Origin: an uncultured delta proteobacterium
GTDB lineage: Bacteria > Desulfobacterota > Binatia > UBA9968
Length of the DNA: 64,000 nt
NCBI GenBank assembly: GCA_963804165.1
Contig: CAWDPO010000017.1
Coordinates: forward strand, 256,001 to 320,000
Direction: 5' to 3'
Within the stretch, counting starts at the first letter, position 1. Each line of letters opens with the position of its first letter. This document shows positions 9,539 through 64,000 of the stretch, in pieces. The notes beneath the pieces are model-generated. The model ran no database searches. It saw only the letters and a program-made list of their open reading frames with translations, and had not been told where the DNA came from. The position numbers were made by a program, and so were the translations under genes.

Positions 9539-10567
9539 CTATTTCTCCAGCAAACGCTTCATGCGATCAACCACTTCTGGAGGTTGGGCGATGACATCGC
9601 GGGCCAGCGTTTCGAGGTCGTGGCCGGCAACAGGATCGATCTCCAATCTCCGTTCTTTGGCTTGCGCCTGAAAATCCGCATCGTTGAGTGTTTTTGCGAA
9701 GGCGCTCTTGAGGATTTTCGCGCGGTCCGGCGGCAGGCCGGGCGAGCTGACGTAGGGCCGGCCGAATGCGCCGACCGCAAGAATGATCGTCGCCAGGCGT
9801 TTGCCCGCCTCCGGAGTTTTGTACTCGTTCATAAGCTCCCAGATGGTCGGAACTTCGGACAGTCTCGGGTCGCGCTTTTTACCGGTTTGGATCAATACGC
9901 GGACAAAACCATTCTTGAACCAGGTGATGAGCGGTTCTCGTCCGAACAAGGTTTCGACGGAGATGCCGCGGCAATGAACCTCTTCGCGCTCGACGGCGAG
10001 CTCGATTTCGGGACCGTCTTTATACCCGGTGAGCGTGACGAACTTTGCTCCGAGCGTTTCCTCCAATAGGTTTCCGGTATAGTAACCGGTCGACGACGTG
10101 CCAGTGGCGCCGCATTTCGGCGGCACGGTTGCATTGCGCACGTCTTGAATCGTCTTGTACGGCGTGGTGGCGCGGATGTAGATAAGCTGCTCGACCTGGG
10201 TCGGCGTGCCGAGCCAGGTAAATTTCCGCCAGTCGAACTGAACTTCTTTTCTGCCCACCAATTGATCGAAATAAAGACCGGCGCGAATCCCGCCGAGAGT
10301 GAGCCCGTCGGGCTTGGCGACTTTGTAAACGTAGTTGGCCGCGATCATCGCGCCGGCGCCGGGCATATTCTGGACGATGAAGTTAGGATTTCCCGGGATG
10401 TACTTGCCGAGGTAACGGGCGATCAACCGCGTCCATGCGTCATCGACACTCCCCGCGCCGTACCCGGCGACGATTCTAATGGTCTTGTCTTGATAGAACG
10501 GCGCTTGGCACCATGTGTTGACGGGTGAAACAAAGACGAGAGCGAGAACGAAAAAGATTCGGTTCAT
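9539..10567 (-). CDS. tctC: Tripartite tricarboxylate transporter (Bug/TctC) substrate-binding protein
   Basis: FYQDKTIRIVAG..G..D, HIPGNP-like YIPGNP, VQNMPGAG, AKPDGLTL. Confidence 0.88.
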   Translation of the reverse strand: MNRIFFVLALVFVSPVNTWCQAPFYQDKTIRIVAGYGAGSVDDAWTRLIARYLGKYIPGNPNFIVQNMPGAGAMIAANYVYKVAKPDGLTLGGIRAGLYFDQLVGRKEVQFDWRKFTWLGTPTQVEQLIYIRATTPYKTIQDVRNATVPPKCGATGTSSTGYYTGNLLEETLGAKFVTLTGYKDGPEIELAVEREEVHCRGISVETLFGREPLITWFKNGFVRVLIQTGKKRDPRLSEVPTIWELMNEYKTPEAGKRLATIILAVGAFGRPYVSSPGLPPDRAKILKSAFAKTLNDADFQAQAKERRLEIDPVAGHDLETLARDVIAQPPEVVDRMKRLLEK

Positions 10568-21566: not shown

Positions 21567-21638
21567 GTTCAACGTTCAAGGGTCCAAAGTTCAAGCTTTC
21601 AAATCGTTTAAACGGTTCAAGTTGTTGAAATCGTTCAA
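21567..21638 (+). repeat. GTTCAA 7-9 bp tandem array downstream of a stop codon
   Basis: gttcaacgttcaagggtccaaagttcaagctttcaaatcgtttaaacggttcaa...gttcaa. Confidence 0.85.
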
Positions 21639-21660
21639 GGGAAGGGAAGTGACGGGAGTT

Positions 21661-22791
21661 ATGGCGAGGCAGTTTCGAGCGGACAATCTTGGTAGTCTGC
21701 TGCGGCCGCCGGAGCTTATTGAGGCGCGCGTGGCGCACCGGGAAGGACGGATCGATGTTGAGCAGCTGCGCGAGATCGAGAACCGTTCGATCCGGGCCGC
21801 GCTGGAAATGCAAAAAGCCGCCGGCGTTGATGTCTTCACTGACGGCGAATATCGGCGCGGCAACTTCATGGCCGATTTCACGAACACGCTTGACGGCATG
21901 GTGCCGAGCGAAACGATCATGGCGCCAATCTGGCGCGGGGCAAATCGCGAACTAGCGAGCCAGTTTCGCCGCTCTGACGGTGAAACAGTCGTCGGTGCCA
22001 GGCTGCGGAAAAAGACCCCTGGGGTTTTTGTCAGTGAGGCAACATTTTTGAAGCAGCATGCGCCGGGGTTGTTCAAAGTCTGTGTTCCGAGCGTCGTGCA
22101 ATTCGCCGACAGCAAATACAAACCTGGAGTGACTGATAAAATTTATCCGACGCGGCGCGCCATGGTGCAGGATTTCTCGGCGCTGCTGCGCGACGAAGTT
22201 CAAGGACTCCTGGATACGGGAACGAGTTACGTTCAACTCGACGGACCGTCGTATTTGACGCATTTGATGGACGAGCGGCGGCGTCAGCAACTGCGCGGTA
22301 TGGGCGCTGATCCGGATGAAATCCTCGATGAGGTGATCGCCGGCGATAACGCGCTCATTCAAGGGCTTCGCCGCAGTGCGGAGACGGTCATCGGCATTCA
22401 CTTCTGCCGCGGCAATAACCGCAGCTCTTGGAGCGCCGAGGGAAGCTACGAGGTTATCGCTGAGAAGACTTTCGGATCATTACAAGCCGATAGATTTCTC
22501 ATGGAGTACGACTCGGAGCGCGCCGGAGGCTTTGAGCCGCTGCGCTTTGTGCCCAAGGGTAAGACCGTCGTGCTTGGCTTGATCACGACCAAAGAGCCGG
22601 AACTGGAATCGGAAGAACTGCTCTGCCGCCGTATCGACGAGGCTGCCCGATATGTTCCACTCGAAAACCTCGCACTCAGCACCCAGTGCGGCTTCGCTTC
22701 GACGCTGCTGGGAAATTTGATTTCGGCGGATGACATGAGTCGAAAGCTTGAGCTGGTGGCGAGAGTCGCGCGGAAGGTTTGGGGGAACTAG
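21661..22791 (+). CDS. MetE C-terminal-like (YxjH-type) Zn-dependent protein
   Basis: RADNLGSLLRP, TDGEYRR, IHFCRGN, MEYD, STQCGFAS. Confidence 0.9.
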   Translation: MARQFRADNLGSLLRPPELIEARVAHREGRIDVEQLREIENRSIRAALEMQKAAGVDVFTDGEYRRGNFMADFTNTLDGMVPSETIMAPIWRGANRELASQFRRSDGETVVGARLRKKTPGVFVSEATFLKQHAPGLFKVCVPSVVQFADSKYKPGVTDKIYPTRRAMVQDFSALLRDEVQGLLDTGTSYVQLDGPSYLTHLMDERRRQQLRGMGADPDEILDEVIAGDNALIQGLRRSAETVIGIHFCRGNNRSSWSAEGSYEVIAEKTFGSLQADRFLMEYDSERAGGFEPLRFVPKGKTVVLGLITTKEPELESEELLCRRIDEAARYVPLENLALSTQCGFASTLLGNLISADDMSRKLELVARVARKVWGN

Positions 22792-22796
22792 GATAG

Positions 22797-22824
22797 GTTC
22801 AACGTTCAAGGGTTCAAGGTTCAA
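22797..22824 (+). repeat. GTTCAA x4 array
   Basis: gttcaacgttcaagggttcaaggttcaa, 5 nt after the stop codon. Confidence 0.85.
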
Positions 22825-22850
22825 AGTTTTCGATCTCTGAGACTCAATTT

Positions 22851-26816: not shown

Positions 26817-26857
26817 GTTCAAGGTTCAAGGGTTCAAAAGTTCAAGGCAGATTCAAA
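26817..26857 (+). repeat. GTTCAA array
   Basis: gttcaaggttcaagggttcaaaagttcaaggcagattcaaa, after the stop codon. Confidence 0.85.
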
Positions 26858-26907: not shown

Positions 26908-28029
26908 ATGGCCATAAAATTTCGGGCGGATAACATCGGCAGTCTTCTGCGACCGGCGGAACTGTTGGCCGCGCGGGCGGCGCTACGCGAGGGTCGTATG
27001 GACGAGCATCAAGTCCGCGAGATCGAGGATCGGTCGATCCTCACGGCCCTGGACATGCAAAAATCCGCCGGTGTCCAAATTTTCACCGACGGCGAATATC
27101 GCCGAGATATTTTTACCGCCGACATCACCAAAGCCCTTGACGGGCTCGTGCCGGGGAAACCGGTGGTGAAGTTCGAATGGCACGGTAGGGGAAAAGAACT
27201 TGCCGAGGAATCCAAGGAAGGCAACTTGCAATATATCGTCGGCGGAAAATTGCGCGGAAAAGGCCGCTTCACACCGAACGAAGCGCCGTTTTTAAAAAAA
27301 CATGCGCCGGGGCCGTTCAAGGTCTGCACGCCGGCGGCGATGCAGCACGCGATTATGCGCTATCGACCCGGCGTGACGGACAAGTTTTATCCGACCGTTC
27401 ACGATATGCTGCAAGACGTGGCGGCGATCATGCGCGAGGAAGTGCAGGCGCTGATCGACGAAGGCGCGTCTTATGTACAACTGGACGCGCCATCGTATTC
27501 GAATTTCTTCGATCACAACCGCCGAGAAGTGCTGAAGCAAAGCGGCATTAACCTGGATGAAGCGCTCGATGCAGCCATCGCCGCCGATAACGCCATGATT
27601 CAAAACCTCAAACGCAAGCCCGACGCCGTTGTCGGCATCCATTTCTGCCGCGGCAACAAGCGCAGCGCCTGGGGCGCAGATGGCAGTTATGAGCCGGTCG
27701 CCGAGAAGGCCTTCGGCTCGCTCAACATGGATCGTTATCTGCTGGAATTCGACACGGACCGCGCCGGCGGCTTCGAGCCGTTGCGATTCGTACCCAAAGA
27801 CAAAACGGTGGTGCTAGGTCTGATCACGACGAAAGAGCCGAAGCTCGAATCCGAGGATGAACTCGTGCGGCGCATCGAACGAGCGGCGAAGTATGTGCCG
27901 ATGGAAAATCTCGCTCTGAGCACGCAGTGTGGCTTTGCCTCCGCGGCGTCGGGGAATTTGATCACGTGGGACGACATGAAGCGCAAGCTCTTGTTGGTCG
28001 CCAAGCTTGCTGGCAGGGTGTGGGGATGA
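26908..28029 (+). CDS. MetE C-terminal-like (YxjH-type) Zn-dependent protein
   Basis: RADNIGSLLRP, TDGEYRR, IHFCRGN, LEFD, STQCGFAS; close paralog of 21661-22791. Confidence 0.9.
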   Translation: MAIKFRADNIGSLLRPAELLAARAALREGRMDEHQVREIEDRSILTALDMQKSAGVQIFTDGEYRRDIFTADITKALDGLVPGKPVVKFEWHGRGKELAEESKEGNLQYIVGGKLRGKGRFTPNEAPFLKKHAPGPFKVCTPAAMQHAIMRYRPGVTDKFYPTVHDMLQDVAAIMREEVQALIDEGASYVQLDAPSYSNFFDHNRREVLKQSGINLDEALDAAIAADNAMIQNLKRKPDAVVGIHFCRGNKRSAWGADGSYEPVAEKAFGSLNMDRYLLEFDTDRAGGFEPLRFVPKDKTVVLGLITTKEPKLESEDELVRRIERAAKYVPMENLALSTQCGFASAASGNLITWDDMKRKLLLVAKLAGRVWG

Positions 28030-28037
28030 CTTAACTC

Positions 28038-28093
28038 GTTCAAACGTTCAAGGTTCAACGGGTCGCCCAGTTCAAATCGTTCAAGCCGTTCAA
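28038..28093 (+). repeat. GTTCAA array
   Basis: gttcaaacgttcaaggttcaa...gttcaaatcgttcaagccgttcaa. Confidence 0.85.
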
Positions 28094-28120
28094 TTCCTTC
28101 ACCTCGAGGTTTCATTGTAA

Positions 28121-44377: not shown

Positions 44378-44424
44378 AAGCGTTCAAATCGTTCAAAATG
44401 TCCAGGACATTGATCCTCGTATTC

Positions 44425-59894: not shown

Positions 59895-60989
59895 TCACTG
59901 ACTCAAGATTCTTTTCAGGGCGGCGCTAATATCGGGTGGTTGGTTGACGACTTCCTTCGCTAACGCTGCCAACTCCTCACCGTTGACCGGCCGCGGTTCC
60001 CAGCCTTTTTTTGCAACATCTTCCTGGAACTCGGGATCGGAAAATATCTTCCAATAGGCTTCGCGCAGCAGTTTGACCCGCTCGGGCGGTAGTCCCGGCG
60101 TGGCCACGATAGGCATCGAGCCAAAACCCCACAAGCCCAAGTAAGTGTTCACCAAGCGGCGCTTGGCGTCGGCGATTTTGTATTGGTCCATCAGTTCGAA
60201 GATGGTTGGCACATCGGGGATTTTCGGATGGCGCTGCTTCTCAGTGTGCAGCCAGATGCGCACAAAGCCTTTCTTATGCCAGGAGATGAATGGTTCGCGG
60301 GCAAAAAAACCGTCGATGGTGATGGCGCGGCAGTTTACCTCGCCCCTTTCCATCGCCAAGTCTTGATCGGCGCCACCCGGATAGCCGCTGATCACTTTAA
60401 ATTTCATGCCCAAGGATTCTTCGAGCAGCCGGGGAATGTCATAACCGGTGCTGCCCACGCCAGTCGCCGAACAGCGCGGCGGATCGTTGGACTGGCGCAA
60501 CTGATCCAAGCTTTTTTGCGGCGCGTCGCTGCGCATGAAGAGCAGATGGCCGGCGCGATAAGGTGTGCCGATCCAGGAATATTTGGGCCAGTCGAATTGC
60601 ACTTCCTTGCGCCCGGTCAACTGCGCCATGATGAGCGCGCCGCCAAAGGAGCCCAGGCTAAGTCCATCCGGTTTGGTCATGTTGTAAACGTGATTGGCGG
60701 CGATCATCGAGCCGGCCCCGGGCATGTTTTGAATGATGAAGTTGGGATTGCCCGGAAGATACTTGCCCATGAAGCGCCCGTAGGTGCGCGCGTATTGGTC
60801 ATGGTTATCGCCCGGTTGGTAGCCGACGATGACGCGGATGGTTTTACCTTGGTAGAAAGGCGTCTGGGCAGACGCCCGTTCAATGTTCAAGGGGTTCAAA
60901 AGTTCAAGGACGGAAAGACCGAGAAGTCCGAACAGCTTGAACGTTGGAACCCATGGACTCGTGAACATATTGTTAAGCCGGTATGTCAC
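59895..60989 (-). CDS. tctC: TctC/Bug substrate-binding protein
   Basis: FYQGKTIRVIVG, LPGNP, NMPGAGS, KPDGL; start may be ATG 60968. Confidence 0.88.
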   Translation of the reverse strand: MTYRLNNMFTSPWVPTFKLFGLLGLSVLELLNPLNIERASAQTPFYQGKTIRVIVGYQPGDNHDQYARTYGRFMGKYLPGNPNFIIQNMPGAGSMIAANHVYNMTKPDGLSLGSFGGALIMAQLTGRKEVQFDWPKYSWIGTPYRAGHLLFMRSDAPQKSLDQLRQSNDPPRCSATGVGSTGYDIPRLLEESLGMKFKVISGYPGGADQDLAMERGEVNCRAITIDGFFAREPFISWHKKGFVRIWLHTEKQRHPKIPDVPTIFELMDQYKIADAKRRLVNTYLGLWGFGSMPIVATPGLPPERVKLLREAYWKIFSDPEFQEDVAKKGWEPRPVNGEELAALAKEVVNQPPDISAALKRILSQ

Positions 60990-61010
60990 GGGGCCTCCCC
61001 TTTAACTGGA

Positions 61011-62099
61011 TCACTTTGCCAGCAACTTTTTCAACGACTCCGTGATTTCCGGCGGTTGATTGACGACGTCCCTTGCGAGCGTCTGCAACTCTTCGCCACC
61101 GATGAACTCGACTTCCCATTTGCGCTTCTTCAACTCTTCTTGAAACTCCGGATCCTTGAACATCTTGGCAAACGCATCGCGCAGAATTTGCGTTCGATCC
61201 GCCGGCGTGCCGGGGGTCGCTACGATCGGTCGGGAGCCGAATCCCCAGATGCCGAGATAGGTATTGACCAAGCGCCGCTTGGAATCGGACACTTTGTATT
61301 GGTCCATCAATTCGAAGACCGTCGGCACGTCGGGCAGCTTGGGATGGCGCTGGCGTTCCGTTTGCAGCCACACTCGAACGAAGTTTTTCTTCACCCAGGT
61401 TGGGAAGGGCTCTCGTTGGAAAAATGATTCGATGATAAACGCACGGCAATGAACCTCGCCGCGCTCCAAAGCGAGATCTTGATCGGCGCCGCCGGGGTAG
61501 CCGCTGATGACGCGGAACTTGAAACCCAACGCTTCTTCGAGCAGCTTCGGCAAATCGTAACCAGTGCTGCCGACGCCGGTTGCCGAACATTTCGGCGGAT
61601 CGTTGGTTTGGCGCAGATCTTCAAAAGTTTTGTACGGCGCGTCGGTGCGCATGTATAAAAGATGGCCGCCGCGGTCGGGAGTCATGATCCAGGCATATTT
61701 CGGCCAGTCGAACTGGACTTCCTTGCGCCCCGTCAACTGCGCCATGAACAGCGCTCCGCCGATGGAGCCTAGCGTCAAGCCGTCCGGCTTGGTCAAGTTG
61801 AAGACGTGGTTGGCGGCGATCATCGAGCCGGCGCCAGGCATGTTTTGCACGACGAAATCGGGATTGCCGGGAATATGCTTGCCGAGAAAGCGTATGTAGG
61901 TTCGCGCCCACAAATCATGACTGTCGCCGGGCTGGTAGCCGACGACGATGCGAATGGTCTTGCCCTGATAGAAATTTGCTTGCGCAAAGGCTTGTTCAAG
62001 GTTCAAAGGGTTCAACAGTTCAACGACGAACAAAAGAAACAGGCTTAATCCGTTGAACGTTTGAACGTTTGAACGGTTGAACCAATGCGTTGAAATCAT
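61011..62099 (-). CDS. tctC: TctC/Bug substrate-binding protein
   Basis: Start MISTHW after GAAGGTGAGG RBS; FYQGKTIRIVVG, HIPGNP, NMPGAGS. Confidence 0.88.
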   Translation of the reverse strand: MISTHWFNRSNVQTFNGLSLFLLFVVELLNPLNLEQAFAQANFYQGKTIRIVVGYQPGDSHDLWARTYIRFLGKHIPGNPDFVVQNMPGAGSMIAANHVFNLTKPDGLTLGSIGGALFMAQLTGRKEVQFDWPKYAWIMTPDRGGHLLYMRTDAPYKTFEDLRQTNDPPKCSATGVGSTGYDLPKLLEEALGFKFRVISGYPGGADQDLALERGEVHCRAFIIESFFQREPFPTWVKKNFVRVWLQTERQRHPKLPDVPTVFELMDQYKVSDSKRRLVNTYLGIWGFGSRPIVATPGTPADRTQILRDAFAKMFKDPEFQEELKKRKWEVEFIGGEELQTLARDVVNQPPEITESLKKLLAK

Positions 62100-62119
62100 A
62101 CTACGCCTCACCTTCAAAA

Positions 62120-63202
62120 CTATTTCGCCAACAATTTTTTTAGCCACTCGACCACTTCCGGCGGTTGATCGATGACTTCCTTCGCAAGCGCCTGGAGGTC
62201 TTCGCCGCTGGTCGGCCGGATCTCCCAGCCGCTTTTTTTCGCTTCGGCAAGGAAGTCGGGATCCTTCATAGTCTTGGCAAAGGCATCGCGCAGGATCCTT
62301 ACACGATCCGCGGGGATGCCCGGAGTCGCCAGGATCGGCCAGGCACCAAAGCCGCCGACACCCAGATAGACAAGCATTTGGCGGCGCTTGATCTCCGGCG
62401 TTTTGTATTGGTCCATCAATTCGAAAAGTGTCGGGACCTCGGGAATCCTGGGATTACGCTGCCGCGAGGTTTGCAGCATGATGCGGACGAAGCCGGTCTT
62501 GTGCCAAGTGACAAAGGGTTCGCGGGCGAAAAACGCCGCAATGGTAATAGCGCGGCATAGCGCCTCGCCTCTTTCGATCGCCAGATCCATTTCGGCGCCG
62601 CCGGGGTAACCGGTGATCAGGCGGAATTTCAAGCCGACCATCTCTTCAAGCAACTTGGGCACGTCGTGGCCGCTGGTGCCGACGCCGGTGGCGCTGCAGC
62701 GCGGCGGCTCTTTGGCGCTGCGGATGTCGTCGAGCGTCTTATAGGGGGAGTCCGAGCGCATGAATAACAAATGGCCGTTGCGCTCCGGCGCGCCGATAAA
62801 GTTAAACTTCGTCCAATCGAATTTGGCTTCTTTGCTGCCGACGAGCTGCGCATAGTAAAGGGCGGGAGAGGGGGAGCCTAGGGTCAAGCCGTCGGGCTTG
62901 GCGACGTTGTACACGTGATTGGCCGCGATCATGCCGCCCGCGCCCGGCATATTCTGCACCAAGATCGCCGGATTGCCGGGAATGTGTTTACCCATACTGC
63001 GCGAATAGGCGCGCGCGAAGAGATCGTGAGTGTCGCCGGGCAAGTTGCCGACGATAATGCGCACGGTCTTGCCCTGGTAGAAATTCGCTTGCGCGAATGC
63101 CCGTTCAACGTTCAAAGGGTTCAATAGTTCAACGACGGAGAAAATCAAGAGTCCGACAACCTTGAACGCTTGAACCTTTGAACTTTTGAACGAGTTCGTC
63201 AT
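62120..63202 (-). CDS. tctC: TctC/Bug substrate-binding protein
   Basis: FYQGKTVRIIVG, HIPGNP, NMPGAGG, AKPDGLTL. Confidence 0.88.
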   Translation of the reverse strand: MTNSFKSSKVQAFKVVGLLIFSVVELLNPLNVERAFAQANFYQGKTVRIIVGNLPGDTHDLFARAYSRSMGKHIPGNPAILVQNMPGAGGMIAANHVYNVAKPDGLTLGSPSPALYYAQLVGSKEAKFDWTKFNFIGAPERNGHLLFMRSDSPYKTLDDIRSAKEPPRCSATGVGTSGHDVPKLLEEMVGLKFRLITGYPGGAEMDLAIERGEALCRAITIAAFFAREPFVTWHKTGFVRIMLQTSRQRNPRIPEVPTLFELMDQYKTPEIKRRQMLVYLGVGGFGAWPILATPGIPADRVRILRDAFAKTMKDPDFLAEAKKSGWEIRPTSGEDLQALAKEVIDQPPEVVEWLKKLLAK

Positions 63203-63223: not shown

Positions 63224-64000
63224 TTACATACCCAACACCTTTTTCATCCGTTCGACAACCTCAGGCGGTGTAGCCATGGCTTCTTTGACCAACGTTTCGA
63301 TTTCATCCCAATGCGATGGATAGATCTCGAGCTTGCGCCGTTCCGCCTCCGCCAAAAACGCCGGGTCGCCAACTGACTTGTCGAACGCGTCGCGCAGGAT
63401 CTTTAGCCGGTCGGCCGGCACTCCCGGCGGCGCAATGATTGGCCGTCCCAAATCGCTGGCAATCAAGATAACTTTGGCGAGGCTTCGCACCGGATCGGGC
63501 GTTTTGTAGCGGTCCATAATCTCATAGATCGTCGGCACATCTTTGAGGCGCGCGTCGCGCTTGCTGCCGGTTTGATAAAGCACGCGCACGAAGTTTTTCT
63601 TGCGCCAGGAGAAAAAAGGCTCGCGGGAATGAAAGGTAGTTATGGTGAATGATCGGCAGACCACCTCGCCCCTTTCAACCGCGAGCTCGATATCCTGTCC
63701 GGCTTGATAGCCGGCGACGATGTCGAATTTGGCGCCAATGGCTTCTTCCAGGAGCTTGGGAATGTAATAGCCCGTCGAGGCAATGCCGCTGGCGCCGCAT
63801 TTTGGCGGATGAGTTGCGGCGCGCACGTCGTCGATGGTTTTGTAGGGTGCGTCTGCGCGCATGTACATCATATGGTTCGAACTCACCGGACTCCCAAACT
63901 TATTCTAGTCATACTTGACCTCCGGTCGTTTCACGAGTTGGTCCAAGTAAAGCGCGGGATAGATCGCTCCAAGGGTCAAGCCGTCAGGCTTGGCAATGGT
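63224..64000 (-). pseudogene. tctC: TctC/Bug protein (5' end outside window) with in-frame TAG at 63905-63907
   Basis: AKPDGLTLGAIYPALY...PEVKYD*NKFGSPVSSNH; TAG replaces the conserved Trp and about 3 codons (WIG-like) are missing. Confidence 0.7.

What the first reader, a model, noticed from the sequence alone, without database searches (positions are those of the whole stretch)
60878..63202. Signal peptides of three tandem tctC genes are encoded by a palindromic GTTCAA/TTGAAC repeat element
Seen: 63103-63191, 61994-62082 and 60878-60966 each carry four GTTCAA units with identical 7/9/8-nt spacing (24 nt, frame-preserving), a ~30-nt variable spacer, then inverted TTGAAC units (four clean units in the first two, degenerate in the third). 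On the coding strand this DNA is translated as the n-, h- and c-regions of the signal peptide: FKSSKVQAFK-VVGLLIFSVV-ELLNPLNVERAFA, FNRSNVQTFN-GLSLFLLFVV-ELLNPLNLEQAFA and VPTFK-LFGLLGLSVL-ELLNPLNIERASA. The loop supplies most of the hydrophobic core. The same GTTCAA arrays occur as non-coding DNA elsewhere in the window, and the unlinked tctC at 9539 has an ordinary signal peptide without them. Inference: a dispersed repeat element was exapted as an export signal, and the mRNA can fold a long hairpin over the first ~35 codons that may tune translation or processing. This resembles in-frame Rickettsia palindromic elements but is aimed at signal peptides.
Basis: partly seen in the sequence, partly recalled or inferred. 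Interest (0 to 1): 0.8.

Follow-up and report, generated by a model that had tools for sequence, protein, structure and literature searches.

The report
Repeat element domesticated as signal peptide
A short hairpin-forming DNA repeat that normally lies untranslated just behind stop codons in this soil bacterium has been taken over as the whole export signal of one family of periplasmic binding-protein genes, and its six-letter words are still kept letter for letter, as if the DNA served two purposes at once.

Summary
Three tandem minus-strand TctC/Bug genes (PF03401) read a GTTCAAx4 - 29-nt loop - TTGAACx4 palindrome in frame as their whole signal peptide.

- **Repeat family.** It is genus-wide: 334 loci in this genome and 31 of 31 sister genomes searched. 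Most copies are non-coding and start a median 11-12 nt after a stop codon. Two full-length copies enclose a PF05635 four-helix-bundle gene.
- **Scope of the translated form.** It is confined to one TctC clade: nine copies in one cluster here, and all 71 database proteins sharing the peptide are TctC or broken or chimeric TctC. It is not "aimed at signal peptides" in general.
- **Origin.** Identical geometry in 27 copies argues for one capture, spread by duplication and exchange. Orthologs at 86-88% identity in two array-poor genomes carry ordinary signal peptides.
- **Constraint.** Given the amino acid, codons inside the words are nearly fixed on rare codons (GTT 23/25, TCA 18/21, CTT 26/28), while spacers and loop drift. 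This indicates nucleotide-level constraint.
- **Hairpin.** It is predicted strongly in two of the three copies. Spacers show no covariation, so its role is untested.

The closest precedents are RPE and the Yersinia YPAL MITE. Earlier notes of this scan report similar repeat-derived signal peptides in other genomes.

The parts
62120..63202 (-). tctC/Bug paralog 1 (360 aa), with a signal peptide of 37 residues
   Evidence: ORF. Pfam PF03401 at 71.5 bits against a cut-off of 27. GGAAGGG lies 5 nt before the ATG.
63162..63191 (-). Copy 1, 5' arm on the coding strand: GTTCAA x4 with 2/2/2 spacers, read as FKSSKVQAFK (n-region)
63133..63161 (-). Copy 1, 29-nt loop, read as the hydrophobic core VVGLLIFSV
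63103..63132 (-). Copy 1, 3' arm on the coding strand: TTGAAC x4 with 2/3/1 spacers, read as (V)ELLNPLNVE (c-region), followed by RAFA|Q
61011..62099 (-). tctC/Bug paralog 2 (362 aa from the ATG at 62099)
   Evidence: GAAGGTGAGG lies before the ATG.
61994..62082 (-). Element copy 2 (4+4 exact units, 29-nt loop), which encodes the signal peptide of paralog 2
59895..60989 (-). tctC/Bug paralog 3 (364 aa, GTG start after AAAGGGGAGG)
60878..60966 (-). Element copy 3. The c-region arm is intact (4 units). The n-region arm has decayed to 1 exact unit.
   Evidence: The fold is not better than shuffles.
63224..64000 (-). Fourth tandem paralog, which runs off the window. It has one in-frame TAG, and its own element copy lies beyond the window at G000:C17:320195-320283.
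21567..21640 (+). Non-coding GTTCAA array, starting 9 nt after a stop codon and lying upstream of the next start
22797..22829 (+). Non-coding GTTCAA array, starting a few nt after the TAG stop
   Evidence: It is predicted unstructured as RNA.
26817..26850 (+). Non-coding GTTCAA array, starting about 10 nt after a TGA stop
28038..28098 (+). Non-coding GTTCAA arrays (3+3 units), starting about 9 nt after a TGA stop
44382..44396 (+). Two-unit GTTCAA array in non-coding DNA
9539..10567 (-). Unlinked tctC with an ordinary 20-residue signal peptide (used as a comparison)

Best explanation
A gene-less copy of a genus-wide foldback repeat was captured once at the 5' end of a tctC/Bug gene in a tandem cluster. 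The repeat is a GTTCAA word array, a variable loop and an inverted TTGAAC array. It normally sits untranslated a few bases after stop codons. Full-length forms enclose a PF05635 four-helix-bundle gene.

**How it is read.** The copy is translated from a start codon just upstream and supplies the whole Sec-type signal peptide:
- the GTTCAA arm gives the Lys-rich n-region (FK / SSK / VQ / FK);
- the 29-nt loop gives the hydrophobic core;
- the TTGAAC arm gives an unusually long c-region (ELLNPLNxE) ending in AxA.

**How it spread.** The arrangement spread through gene duplication and through exchange of 5' ends between tandem paralogs. It has repeatedly been replaced by ordinary signal peptides.

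**Constraint.** The six-letter words are still under nucleotide-level purifying selection inside the coding sequence, so the DNA or mRNA keeps a second function besides coding. That function is inferred, not shown. It is most likely recognition of the word by a trans-acting factor, formation of the arm-arm hairpin in the mRNA, or both.

**Shown:** anatomy, family membership, distribution, codon-level conservation. **Inferred:** export function, a single capture, the second function.
For: 1. **Same family.**
   - There are 334 loci in the genome, with GTTCAA-first polarity in 71 against 3.
   - The arrays occur in 31 of 31 genomes of the genus, with 0-1 hits of the reversed control pattern.
   - They occur in only 2 of 12 genomes of other genera of the order, one hit each.
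   - Of 243 loci with 3 or more units, 17 lie in my gene cores.
   - Arrays start a median 11 nt (single, 66 of 103 within 20 nt) or 12 nt (palindromic, 51 of 75) after the upstream stop.
   - Here the first unit lies 32, 37 and 44 nt after the upstream stop (coordinates).
2. **Translated as a signal peptide.**
   - All three proteins are PF03401.
   - A Shine-Dalgarno-like motif and a start lie upstream of the element in every copy shown.
   - The 27 element-type peptides have a median length of 38 aa, n-region charge +3 and best 10-residue Kyte-Doolittle window 2.8; 14 of 27 have AxA.
   - The 34 ordinary ones have length 23, charge +1.5 and window 2.9.
3. **One capture.**
   - 27 of 78 clade copies fit one 89-nt template at 36 or more of 48 word positions, and 18 fit at 48/48.
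   - The distance to the -1 codon is 8 nt in 22 of the 27.
   - Non-coding copies have loops of 2-112 nt and variable spacers.
4. **Word-level selection.** Conditional on the amino acid, over all 78 copies:

   | Amino acid = codon | Observed | Expected from the mature parts |
   |---|---|---|
   | V = GTT | 23/25 | 0.124 |
   | S = TCA | 18/21 | 0.052 |
   | S = AGT | 15/28 | 0.066 |
   | L = CTT | 26/28 | 0.098 |
   | N = AAC | 27/27 and 29/29 | 0.52 |
   | E = GAA | 32/32 | 0.54 |
   | L = TTG | 31/42 and 30/40 | 0.24 |

   - A spacer Leu column and the -2 Ala column use mixed codons.
   - In conserved mature columns the majority-codon share is 0.72 against 0.54 expected.
5. **Turnover.**
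   - Orthologs of gene 1 at 88% and 86% identity (G008, G036) have ordinary signal peptides with 0 of 8 words.
   - These genomes have 25 and 18 array hits, against 136-409 in the seven array-rich genomes that keep the gene-1 element type; the eighth, G007, has 7.
   - The quick ML tree of 70 rows needs at least 10-13 label changes on well-supported branches.
   - The G018 orthologs of genes 1 and 2 carry loop types exchanged relative to G000.
6. **RNA.** Contigs from two metatranscriptome runs of one study cover both elements at 90-99% identity, for example 61867-62118 and 62975-63192. This is weak evidence, because the tool warns that DNA can be present in such libraries.
Against: - No signal-peptide predictor could be run. 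The c-region of 13 residues, with two Glu and one Arg, is atypically long, and cleavage and export are untested.
- The tree is the quick search only and is rooted at the midpoint. It does not give the direction of change (ancestral element with losses, or later spread by conversion).
- The second function is unidentified:
  - No spacer or loop-closing pair covaries; 0 of 14 exceed shuffles, the best being 217 of 2000.
  - Copy 3 does not fold better than shuffles.
  - The GTTCAA-type PF05635 gene was not found at E<=1e-25 in array-rich genomes that keep element-type signal peptides: G004 (293 hits), G035, G002 and G042.
- G007, with only 7 array hits, still has element-type copies with 6 of 8 words, so the link between genome-wide array load and retention is loose.
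- Related genomes are not independent samples.
Confidence: 0.7

Rival explanations
1. The words are intact because the signal-peptide segments are young. Recent gene conversion among tandem paralogs, or from non-coding copies, keeps re-homogenising them, and there is no selection on the words.
For: Exchange of 5' ends between tandem paralogs does occur: the loop types of genes 1 and 2 are swapped between G000 and G018. Signal-peptide types are interspersed on the tree. Mature conserved columns also keep some shared codons (0.72 against 0.54 expected).
Against: Conversion would homogenise spacers and loops too, yet these vary. Third positions in the loop carry 0.2-0.9 bit in most columns, against about 2 bits in the words. 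A spacer Leu column uses 6 codons. Element-type copies whose mature parts are only 52-56% identical still have 8 of 8 words.
Confidence: 0.12
2. The foldback element has a target preference for this junction and inserted independently into many tctC paralogs. There were several recurrent captures, not one.
For: The junctions of this tandem cluster attract word-array elements. Other words (CACTCCA, GATTTTG) lie just upstream of orthologous starts in G007, G036 and G008. Arrays in general sit right after stop codons.
Against: The geometry is identical: spacers 2/2/2, a 29-nt loop, spacers 2/3/1, and 8 nt to the -1 codon in 22 of 27 copies. Loops of non-coding copies range from 2 to 112 nt.
Confidence: 0.1
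3. The element is not translated. The real start lies at or after its 3' arm (for example one of the TTG codons) and the element is a 5' leader.
For: The 3' arm has in-frame TTG codons. The starts were not verified experimentally.
Against: Such a protein would begin 7-10 residues before the mature N-terminus and would lack any hydrophobic signal. Yet it belongs to a periplasmic receptor family whose paralogs and orthologs all have signal peptides ending at the same AxA|Q position. No Shine-Dalgarno-like motif precedes those TTGs, while one precedes the upstream ATG or GTG. The frame stays open through the element in nearly all element-type copies shown, apart from two frameshifted copies in one genome (L013, G040).
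Confidence: 0.05
4. Peptide-level selection alone (a useful FK...LLNPLN motif) produced the hexamers, and the likeness to the non-coding arrays is coincidental.
For: The peptide motif is conserved across copies.
Against: Given the amino acid, rare codons that spell the word are used almost exclusively. The same word, polarity and unit number occur in hundreds of non-coding loci.
Confidence: 0.02

Closest known systems
Rickettsia palindromic elements (RPE; Ogata et al. 2000, as described in the passages of the Delihas review PMC2229807 that I read)
   Same: A dispersed palindromic repeat that occurs both between genes and fused in frame inside conserved protein genes, where it is tolerated or used by the protein.
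   Different: RPE copies are conserved over their whole 105-146 bp and sit inside mature proteins. Here only the six-letter words are conserved and the loop is free. The copy forms the whole signal peptide, and the words stay under nucleotide-level constraint. No sequence relation to RPE was tested.
Yersinia YPAL/RU-2 MITE fused to ORFs (Delihas 2007, as summarised in PMC2229807, passages read)
   Same: A hairpin-forming mobile repeat whose hydrophobic translation contributes a predicted signal peptide (locus YPO1552).
   Different: In Yersinia the repeat forms only part of the signal of a small putative new protein in two close species. Here it forms the whole signal of an established periplasmic receptor family, in 27 copies across at least 15 genomes of a genus, with a codon-level test.
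23S rRNA intervening sequences carrying an S23p/PF05635 ORF (Coxiella IVS, PMC4990558, abstract only)
   Same: Full-length relatives of the element are a small PF05635 gene between inverted arms that can pair. The copies described here are gene-less derivatives.
   Different: These copies lie at protein-gene junctions, not in rRNA. The arms are arrays of a short word that differs between cassette lineages. RNase III processing was not tested.
REP/BIME-type extragenic palindromes
   Same: Hundreds of copies, location just after stop codons, and hairpin potential.
   Different: Built from repeated words with variable spacers and loops. Many loci are single, non-palindromic arrays predicted to be unstructured. 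Association with a RAYT transposase was not tested.
Earlier notes of this scan on repeat-derived signal peptides and on GTTCAA foldbacks in Binatia (e1-3894646, e1-2768611, e1-4553460, e1-1264793, e1-900405; AI notes)
   Same: The same phenomenon (a hairpin repeat read as an export signal) and the same repeat family (GTTCAA arms around a PF05635 gene), reported on other DNA.
   Different: Those notes concern other genomes. The combination seen here was not in the notes returned by my three look-ups. That combination is a GTTCAA foldback read as the signal peptide of a TctC clade, with synonymous-site conservation.

Membership tests
TctC/Bug periplasmic substrate-binding proteins (PF03401) | Match to Pfam PF03401 above the gathering score | tested here: met
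   71.5, 55.7 and 48.8 bits against a cut-off of 27
Sec-type cleavable signal peptide | Positively charged n-region, hydrophobic h-region of about 7-15 residues, and small residues at -3/-1 | tested here: met
   By my own simple measures: n-region charge median +3, best 10-residue Kyte-Doolittle window median 2.8 (2.9 for ordinary paralogs), and AxA in 14 of 27. The c-region is long (13 residues). No trained predictor was available.
Sec-type cleavable signal peptide | Export and cleavage by signal peptidase I | not testable with these tools
   Needs proteomics or reporter fusions.
GTTCAA foldback repeat family of this genus | Arrays of the word GTTCAA followed by inverted TTGAAC arrays, with GTTCAA first | tested here: met
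   Polarity is 71 against 3 genome-wide.
GTTCAA foldback repeat family of this genus | Position at a gene junction shortly after a stop codon | tested here: met
   The first unit lies 32, 37 and 44 nt after the upstream stop. Family medians are 11-12 nt.
Hairpin-armed PF05635 cassette (IVS-like) | The arms enclose a PF05635 four-helix-bundle ORF | tested here: not met
   The signal-peptide copies have a 29-nt loop and no ORF. Two full-length GTTCAA cassettes exist at G000:C34:19148 and G000:C34:21782, so the copies here are gene-less derivatives.
MITE | Terminal inverted repeats | tested here: met
   The inverted word arrays.
MITE | Target-site duplication and a cognate transposase | not tested
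   The ends are ill-defined because the spacers vary, and no transposase was sought.
Rickettsia palindromic elements | Sequence similarity to an RPE family consensus | not tested
   No RPE sequence was at hand. The likeness is in behaviour only.
Structured regulatory RNA hairpin | Compensatory changes that keep base pairs | tested here: not met
   The words never vary, and 0 of 14 spacer or loop-closing pairs pair more often than shuffles. Predicted stability comes from the words alone.

The most novel reading that the evidence does not exclude
The GTTCAA words are cis-sites of a genome-wide, word-specific nucleic-acid recognition system that acts on hundreds of stop-codon-proximal sites. The TctC clade keeps a complete site inside its signal-peptide codons. 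One stretch of DNA would then carry two overlapping codes, export signal and regulatory or processing site, and a whole set of transporter-receptor paralogs would be controlled together at the mRNA level.
Probability: 0.2. Interest if true: 0.8.

Novelty: new variant of a known kind. Interest (0 to 1): 0.55.

Why it matters
It is a clean, multi-genome case of selfish-looking repeat DNA becoming a working part of proteins: a complete export signal for a conserved receptor family.

Unlike the published cases I could read about, the captured repeat keeps its nucleotide words at synonymous sites long after capture. That makes an overlapping-code hypothesis directly testable: recode the words synonymously, then measure export, mRNA level and cleavage.

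It also shows how easily a foldback made of such words yields a signal peptide. The sense arm is Lys-rich in two frames, the loop is free to become hydrophobic, and the antisense arm is Leu/Asn-rich. This may explain why similar captures keep turning up in other phyla, according to earlier, unchecked notes of this scan.

Practically, gene callers and signal-peptide predictors may mis-start such genes, and repeat maskers may hide their 5' ends.

Tried and rejected
- **Same peptide on unrelated families.** A search with residues 1-40 against 5.8 billion proteins, restricted to lengths 198-630 aa, found 71 proteins. 68 carry PF03401. The three without it are two frameshifted TctC and one chimera with a TctC N-terminus. 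My reading of all in-ORF arrays of this genome found no other family.
- **PF05635 protein as the factor that keeps the words.** Protein clusters do track the word of their own arms. However, the GTTCAA-type protein was not found with this query in several array-rich genomes. The idea is weakened, not excluded.
- **Hairpin covariation.** None was found.
- **Literature.**
  - GTTCAA + repeat + intergenic gave 62 papers. The 15 listed were all eukaryotic or unrelated.
  - 'palindromic element' + 'signal peptide' + in-frame + repeat gave 4 papers, none describing this (listing and abstracts only).
  - PF05635/TIGR02436 terms gave 8 papers. None describes word-array arms, judging by listing and abstracts.
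- **DNA-run holders.** Shares of 0.29-0.40 show relatives in soil and rhizosphere metagenomes. I made no habitat claim from them.
- **Parts of the stretch without RNA-contig cover.** These say nothing.
- **Careful tree search.** It did not finish in 300 s, so the quick tree was used. Eight of the 78 copies were dropped for being short or having a stop.
- **Ideas set aside.** An IHF-site or tRNA T-loop likeness of the word was considered from memory and dropped as untestable here.
Full report
**1. Observation**

- On the + strand, GTTCAA units start at 63103/63110/63119/63127, at 61994/62001/62010/62018 and at 60878/60885/60894/60902. The spacing is 7/9/8 in each copy.
- After 25-29 nt come inverted TTGAAC units. 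There are four exact units in the first two copies and one exact unit in the third.
- The two-unit pattern occurs 27 times in the window against 0.04 expected; 0 of 100 shuffles reach 27.
- Three tandem minus-strand ORFs read through these stretches: 62120-63202, 61011-62099 and 59895-60989. All three match Pfam TctC PF03401 above the cut-off.
- Each has a purine-rich Shine-Dalgarno-like motif and an ATG or GTG 2-10 codons upstream of the element. The mature protein (A|QANFYQGKT...) follows 8 nt after the element.
- On the coding strand the order is GTTCAAx4 (n-region FKSSKVQAFK), a 29-nt loop (h-region) and TTGAACx4 (c-region ELLNPLNxE), then RAFA|Q.
- The unlinked tctC at 9539-10567 has an ordinary 20-residue signal.

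**2. The element is one member of a large repeat family**

The window lies in a 7.50-Mb, 46-contig assembly with 55.8% G+C.
- I found 334 loci with runs of the word in the whole genome.
- Of these, 233 have arrays in one direction only, 71 have a GTTCAA array followed by a TTGAAC array, and only 3 have the opposite order.
- Non-coding palindromic copies have 2-5 units per arm, variable spacers (7- and 9-nt periods) and loops of 2-112 nt with unrelated sequences.
- I made my own crude gene calls (longest ORFs scored by codon usage, trimmed by 120 nt at the 5' end). With them, 17 of 243 loci with three or more units lie inside gene cores.
- In tandem gene contexts, single arrays are in the sense direction in 75 cases and antisense in 33.
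- Arrays begin a median 11 nt after the upstream stop codon for single arrays (66 of 103 within 20 nt) and 12 nt for palindromes (51 of 75 within 20 nt). The distance to the next (longest-ORF) start has a median of 130 nt for single arrays.
- Triple-unit arrays occur in 31 of 31 genomes of the genus, with 7 to 409 hits; the reversed control pattern gives 0-1. They occur in 2 of 12 genomes of other genera of the order, one hit each.
- Names attached to database proteins place the group in Candidatus Binatia.

**3. Full-length relatives carry a gene**

I followed a lead from earlier notes of this scan (e1-1264793, e1-900405) and searched for PF05635, the 23S-rRNA-intervening-sequence protein (a four-helix bundle).
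- Of five matches in this genome, two (C34:19148-19429 and C34:21782-22096) lie exactly between GTTCAAx4 and TTGAACx4.
- In 12 loci from 12 genomes of the genus (one of them G000), every PF05635 gene is, by my reading, flanked by inverted arrays of some short word. The word differs between loci: AGGCAAT, AGGCTTG, AGGAGTAAG, AGGGGTAAG, GTTCCA or GTTCAA.
- Protein similarity tracks the word. The GTTCAA copies are 70-90% identical to each other. The GTTCCA copy is 61-63% identical to them. Copies with other words are 28-40% identical to them.
- The short palindromes therefore look like gene-less derivatives of a hairpin-armed cassette, comparable to a MITE and its parent.
- Arms and gene are linked, so their co-divergence does not by itself show that the protein recognises the word.

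**4. The translated form belongs to one TctC clade**

- In this genome, reading every array that lies in an open frame of 150 aa or more, I found the complete palindrome read into a recognisable protein only in one cluster on contig C17. It holds nine copies between C17:316878 and C17:331427.
- A search with residues 1-40 of paralog 1 against 5.8 billion proteins (lengths 198-630 aa) gave 71 hits. 68 carry PF03401. The other three are two frameshifted TctC and one chimera with a TctC N-terminus.

**5. One capture, then spread and turnover**

- I collected 78 clade copies from 29 fetched loci and from C17:310-360 kb. 24 have 4+4 exact words, 30 have none, and the rest are partial.
- 27 copies fit a single 89-nt template at 36 or more of 48 word positions, 18 of them perfectly. 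The element ends 8 nt before the -1 codon in 22 of the 27. Such fixed geometry contrasts with the variable non-coding copies and argues for common descent from one capture.
- On a quick maximum-likelihood tree of 70 copies, element-type and ordinary signals are interspersed. Eight copies had been dropped as short or carrying a stop; the careful search did not finish; the root is at the midpoint only. Well-supported branches force at least 10-13 changes.
- The orthologs of paralog 1 in G008 (88% identical) and G036 (86%) have ordinary 26-27-residue signals with none of the eight words. That is a replacement, not decay.
- In G018 the orthologs of paralogs 1 and 2 carry loop types exchanged relative to this genome, so 5' ends move between tandem paralogs.
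- Other word arrays (CACTCCA, GATTTTG) lie just upstream of orthologous starts in G007, G036 and G008, so these tight junctions are hot spots for such elements.
- G008 and G036 are array-poor (25 and 18 hits), while seven of the eight genomes with element-type orthologs of paralog 1 have 136-409. The eighth, G007, has 7 hits and still keeps 6 of 8 words. The link is suggestive only, and the genomes are related.

**6. The words are conserved at synonymous sites**

To avoid choosing copies by the feature counted, I took all 78 copies. For each codon column upstream of the cleavage site I counted codons only among copies that have the consensus amino acid. The expectation is the codon usage of the mature parts of the same genes.

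| Amino acid = codon | Observed | Expected |
|---|---|---|
| Val = GTT | 23 of 25 | 0.124 |
| Ser = TCA | 18 of 21 | 0.052 |
| Ser = AGT | 15 of 28 | 0.066 |
| Leu = CTT | 26 of 28 | 0.098 |
| Asn = AAC | 27 of 27 and 29 of 29 | 0.52 |
| Glu = GAA | 32 of 32 | 0.54 |
| Gln = CAA | 21 of 22 | 0.50 |
| Leu = TTG | 31 of 42 and 30 of 40 | 0.24 |

- Within the same stretch, a spacer Leu column uses six codons, and the -2 Ala column uses GCG 15, GCA 13, GCC 4 and GCT 2.
- In conserved columns of the mature part of 32 element-type copies, the majority codon has a mean share of 0.72 against 0.54 expected. Shared ancestry contributes something there, but far less than is seen in the words.
- Copies whose mature parts are only 52-56% identical still have all eight words.
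- The words are therefore kept by constraint on the nucleotides, not by the peptide and not by recent homogenisation of the whole segment.

**7. Signal-peptide character**

No trained predictor was available. By simple measures:

| Measure | 27 element-type | 34 ordinary |
|---|---|---|
| Median length | 38 residues | 23 residues |
| n-region net charge | +3 | +1.5 |
| Best 10-residue hydropathy window | 2.8 | 2.9 |
| Residues after that window | 13 | 7 |

AxA at -3/-1 occurs in 14 of the 27 element-type peptides. The tripartite layout is present. The c-region is unusually long and contains charged residues.

**8. Hairpin**

- As RNA, the 99-nt stretches fold to -39.7 kcal/mol (z -6.3), -27.8 (z -3.1) and -27.1 (z -1.6; 14 of 200 shuffles fold as well).
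- In a longer context the hairpin persists and starts 8-14 nt after the AUG.
- Single arrays are predicted unstructured; 184 and 197 of 200 shuffles fold at least as well as two of them.
- Because the words never vary, they cannot show covariation. None of 14 candidate spacer or loop-closing pairs pairs more often than shuffles.
- In partial copies the 3' arm outlasts the 5' arm in 10 cases against 3.
- Selection thus seems to act on the words, not on helix continuity. A hairpin role is possible but has no independent support.

**9. What keeps the words**

A word-specific trans factor is the most economical idea, but its identity is open.
- The cognate-looking PF05635 protein was found at 60% identity or more in many genomes.
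- It was not found at E<=1e-25 in the array-rich genomes G004 (293 hits; 92% complete, about 10 contigs), G035, G002 and G042. G004 still has element-type signals with 7-8 words.
- This weakens that candidate.

**10. Expression**

Assembled contigs of two metatranscriptome runs from one study cover both intact elements at 90-99% identity: 61867-62118, 62051-62257, 62975-63192 and 63065-63174. The tool warns that such libraries can hold DNA and that contigs show no ends, so this is only weak support that the element is in the transcript.

**11. Comparison with what is known**

- The passages I read of the Delihas review (PMC2229807) describe RPE fused in frame into 19 Rickettsia genes. They also describe the Yersinia YPAL/RU-2 MITE partly forming a predicted signal peptide (YPO1552).
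- The present case is of that kind, with four differences: the repeat supplies the whole signal of a conserved receptor family; it is shared by many paralogs and species; it consists of words and not a conserved consensus; and it keeps nucleotide-level constraint.
- For the Coxiella IVS paper (PMC4990558) I saw only the abstract in the listing. It gives the parallel for PF05635 genes inside paired arms.
- My searches found no paper describing GTTCAA word arrays, word-array arms around PF05635 genes, or this signal peptide. They covered only the held library, and I saw only listings and abstracts.
- Earlier AI notes of this scan report repeat-derived signal peptides in other phyla and the GTTCAA foldback in Binatia. 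I treated them as leads. I checked the PF05635 link and the review myself.

**12. Unpublished genome**

The unpublished genome G005 is one of the genomes in the tallies, and gives one of the 78 copies (L024). No conclusion depends on it.

**13. Verdict**

The reading "repeat exapted as export signal" is well supported, as a single old capture in one TctC clade. The "aimed at signal peptides" reading is not supported. The hairpin function is open. The most interesting result is the conservation of the words at synonymous sites.

Noticed in passing
window 63224-64000 (minus strand; continues to G000:C17:320288): The fourth tandem tctC paralog has one in-frame TAG near window 63887, although its element-type signal-peptide region is intact. 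It may be a pseudogene or an assembly error.
   Followed up: partly
G000:C34:19148-19429 and G000:C34:21782-22096 (locus L047); loci L035-L046: PF05635 four-helix-bundle genes sit between inverted arrays of a short word. The word differs between cassette lineages, and protein similarity tracks it: GTTCAA copies are 70-90% identical, and the GTTCCA copy is 61-63% identical to them. All units of one cassette share the same word, which calls for a homogenising force.
   Followed up: partly
L009 (G007), L016 (G036), L015 (G008), upstream of tctC starts: Arrays of other words (CACTCCA-type, GATTTTG-type) lie at the same tandem-gene junctions where this genome has GTTCAA elements. Related genomes thus carry different repeats at one spot.
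   Followed up: no
G000: C3:89536, C10:20855, C10:25664, C16:60140, C33:82677, C43:306395, C46:151648: Several 9-nt-period GTTCAA foldbacks carry a second, nested G+C-rich hairpin (CCCCC...CGCG...GGGGG) in their loops. This looks like another repeat family nested inside.
   Followed up: no
G000:C30:43339-43437: A 9-nt-period palindrome starts right at an ATG and is in frame (VQN VQA VQD VQI ... LNE LNV LND LNK) with an ABC-ATPase-like ORF. It is unclear whether it is a translated N-terminal extension or only a leader.
   Followed up: no
window 21662-22792 and 26910-28027 (+): Two paralogous genes with similar C-terminal ends (...VWG*) are each followed within about 10 nt by a sense GTTCAA array. 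These arrays are predicted to be less structured than shuffled sequence.
   Followed up: partly
L006 (G018) versus window 61994-63191: The orthologs of paralogs 1 and 2 in G018 carry signal-peptide loop types exchanged relative to this genome. This points to recombination between the 5' ends of neighbouring paralogs.
   Followed up: partly
L013 (G040:C30), copies at locus positions 479 and 2745: Two element-bearing tctC copies in G040 are out of frame or have stops at the junction between the element and the mature part (3 TGA reported). These are possible pseudogenes or assembly errors.
   Followed up: no
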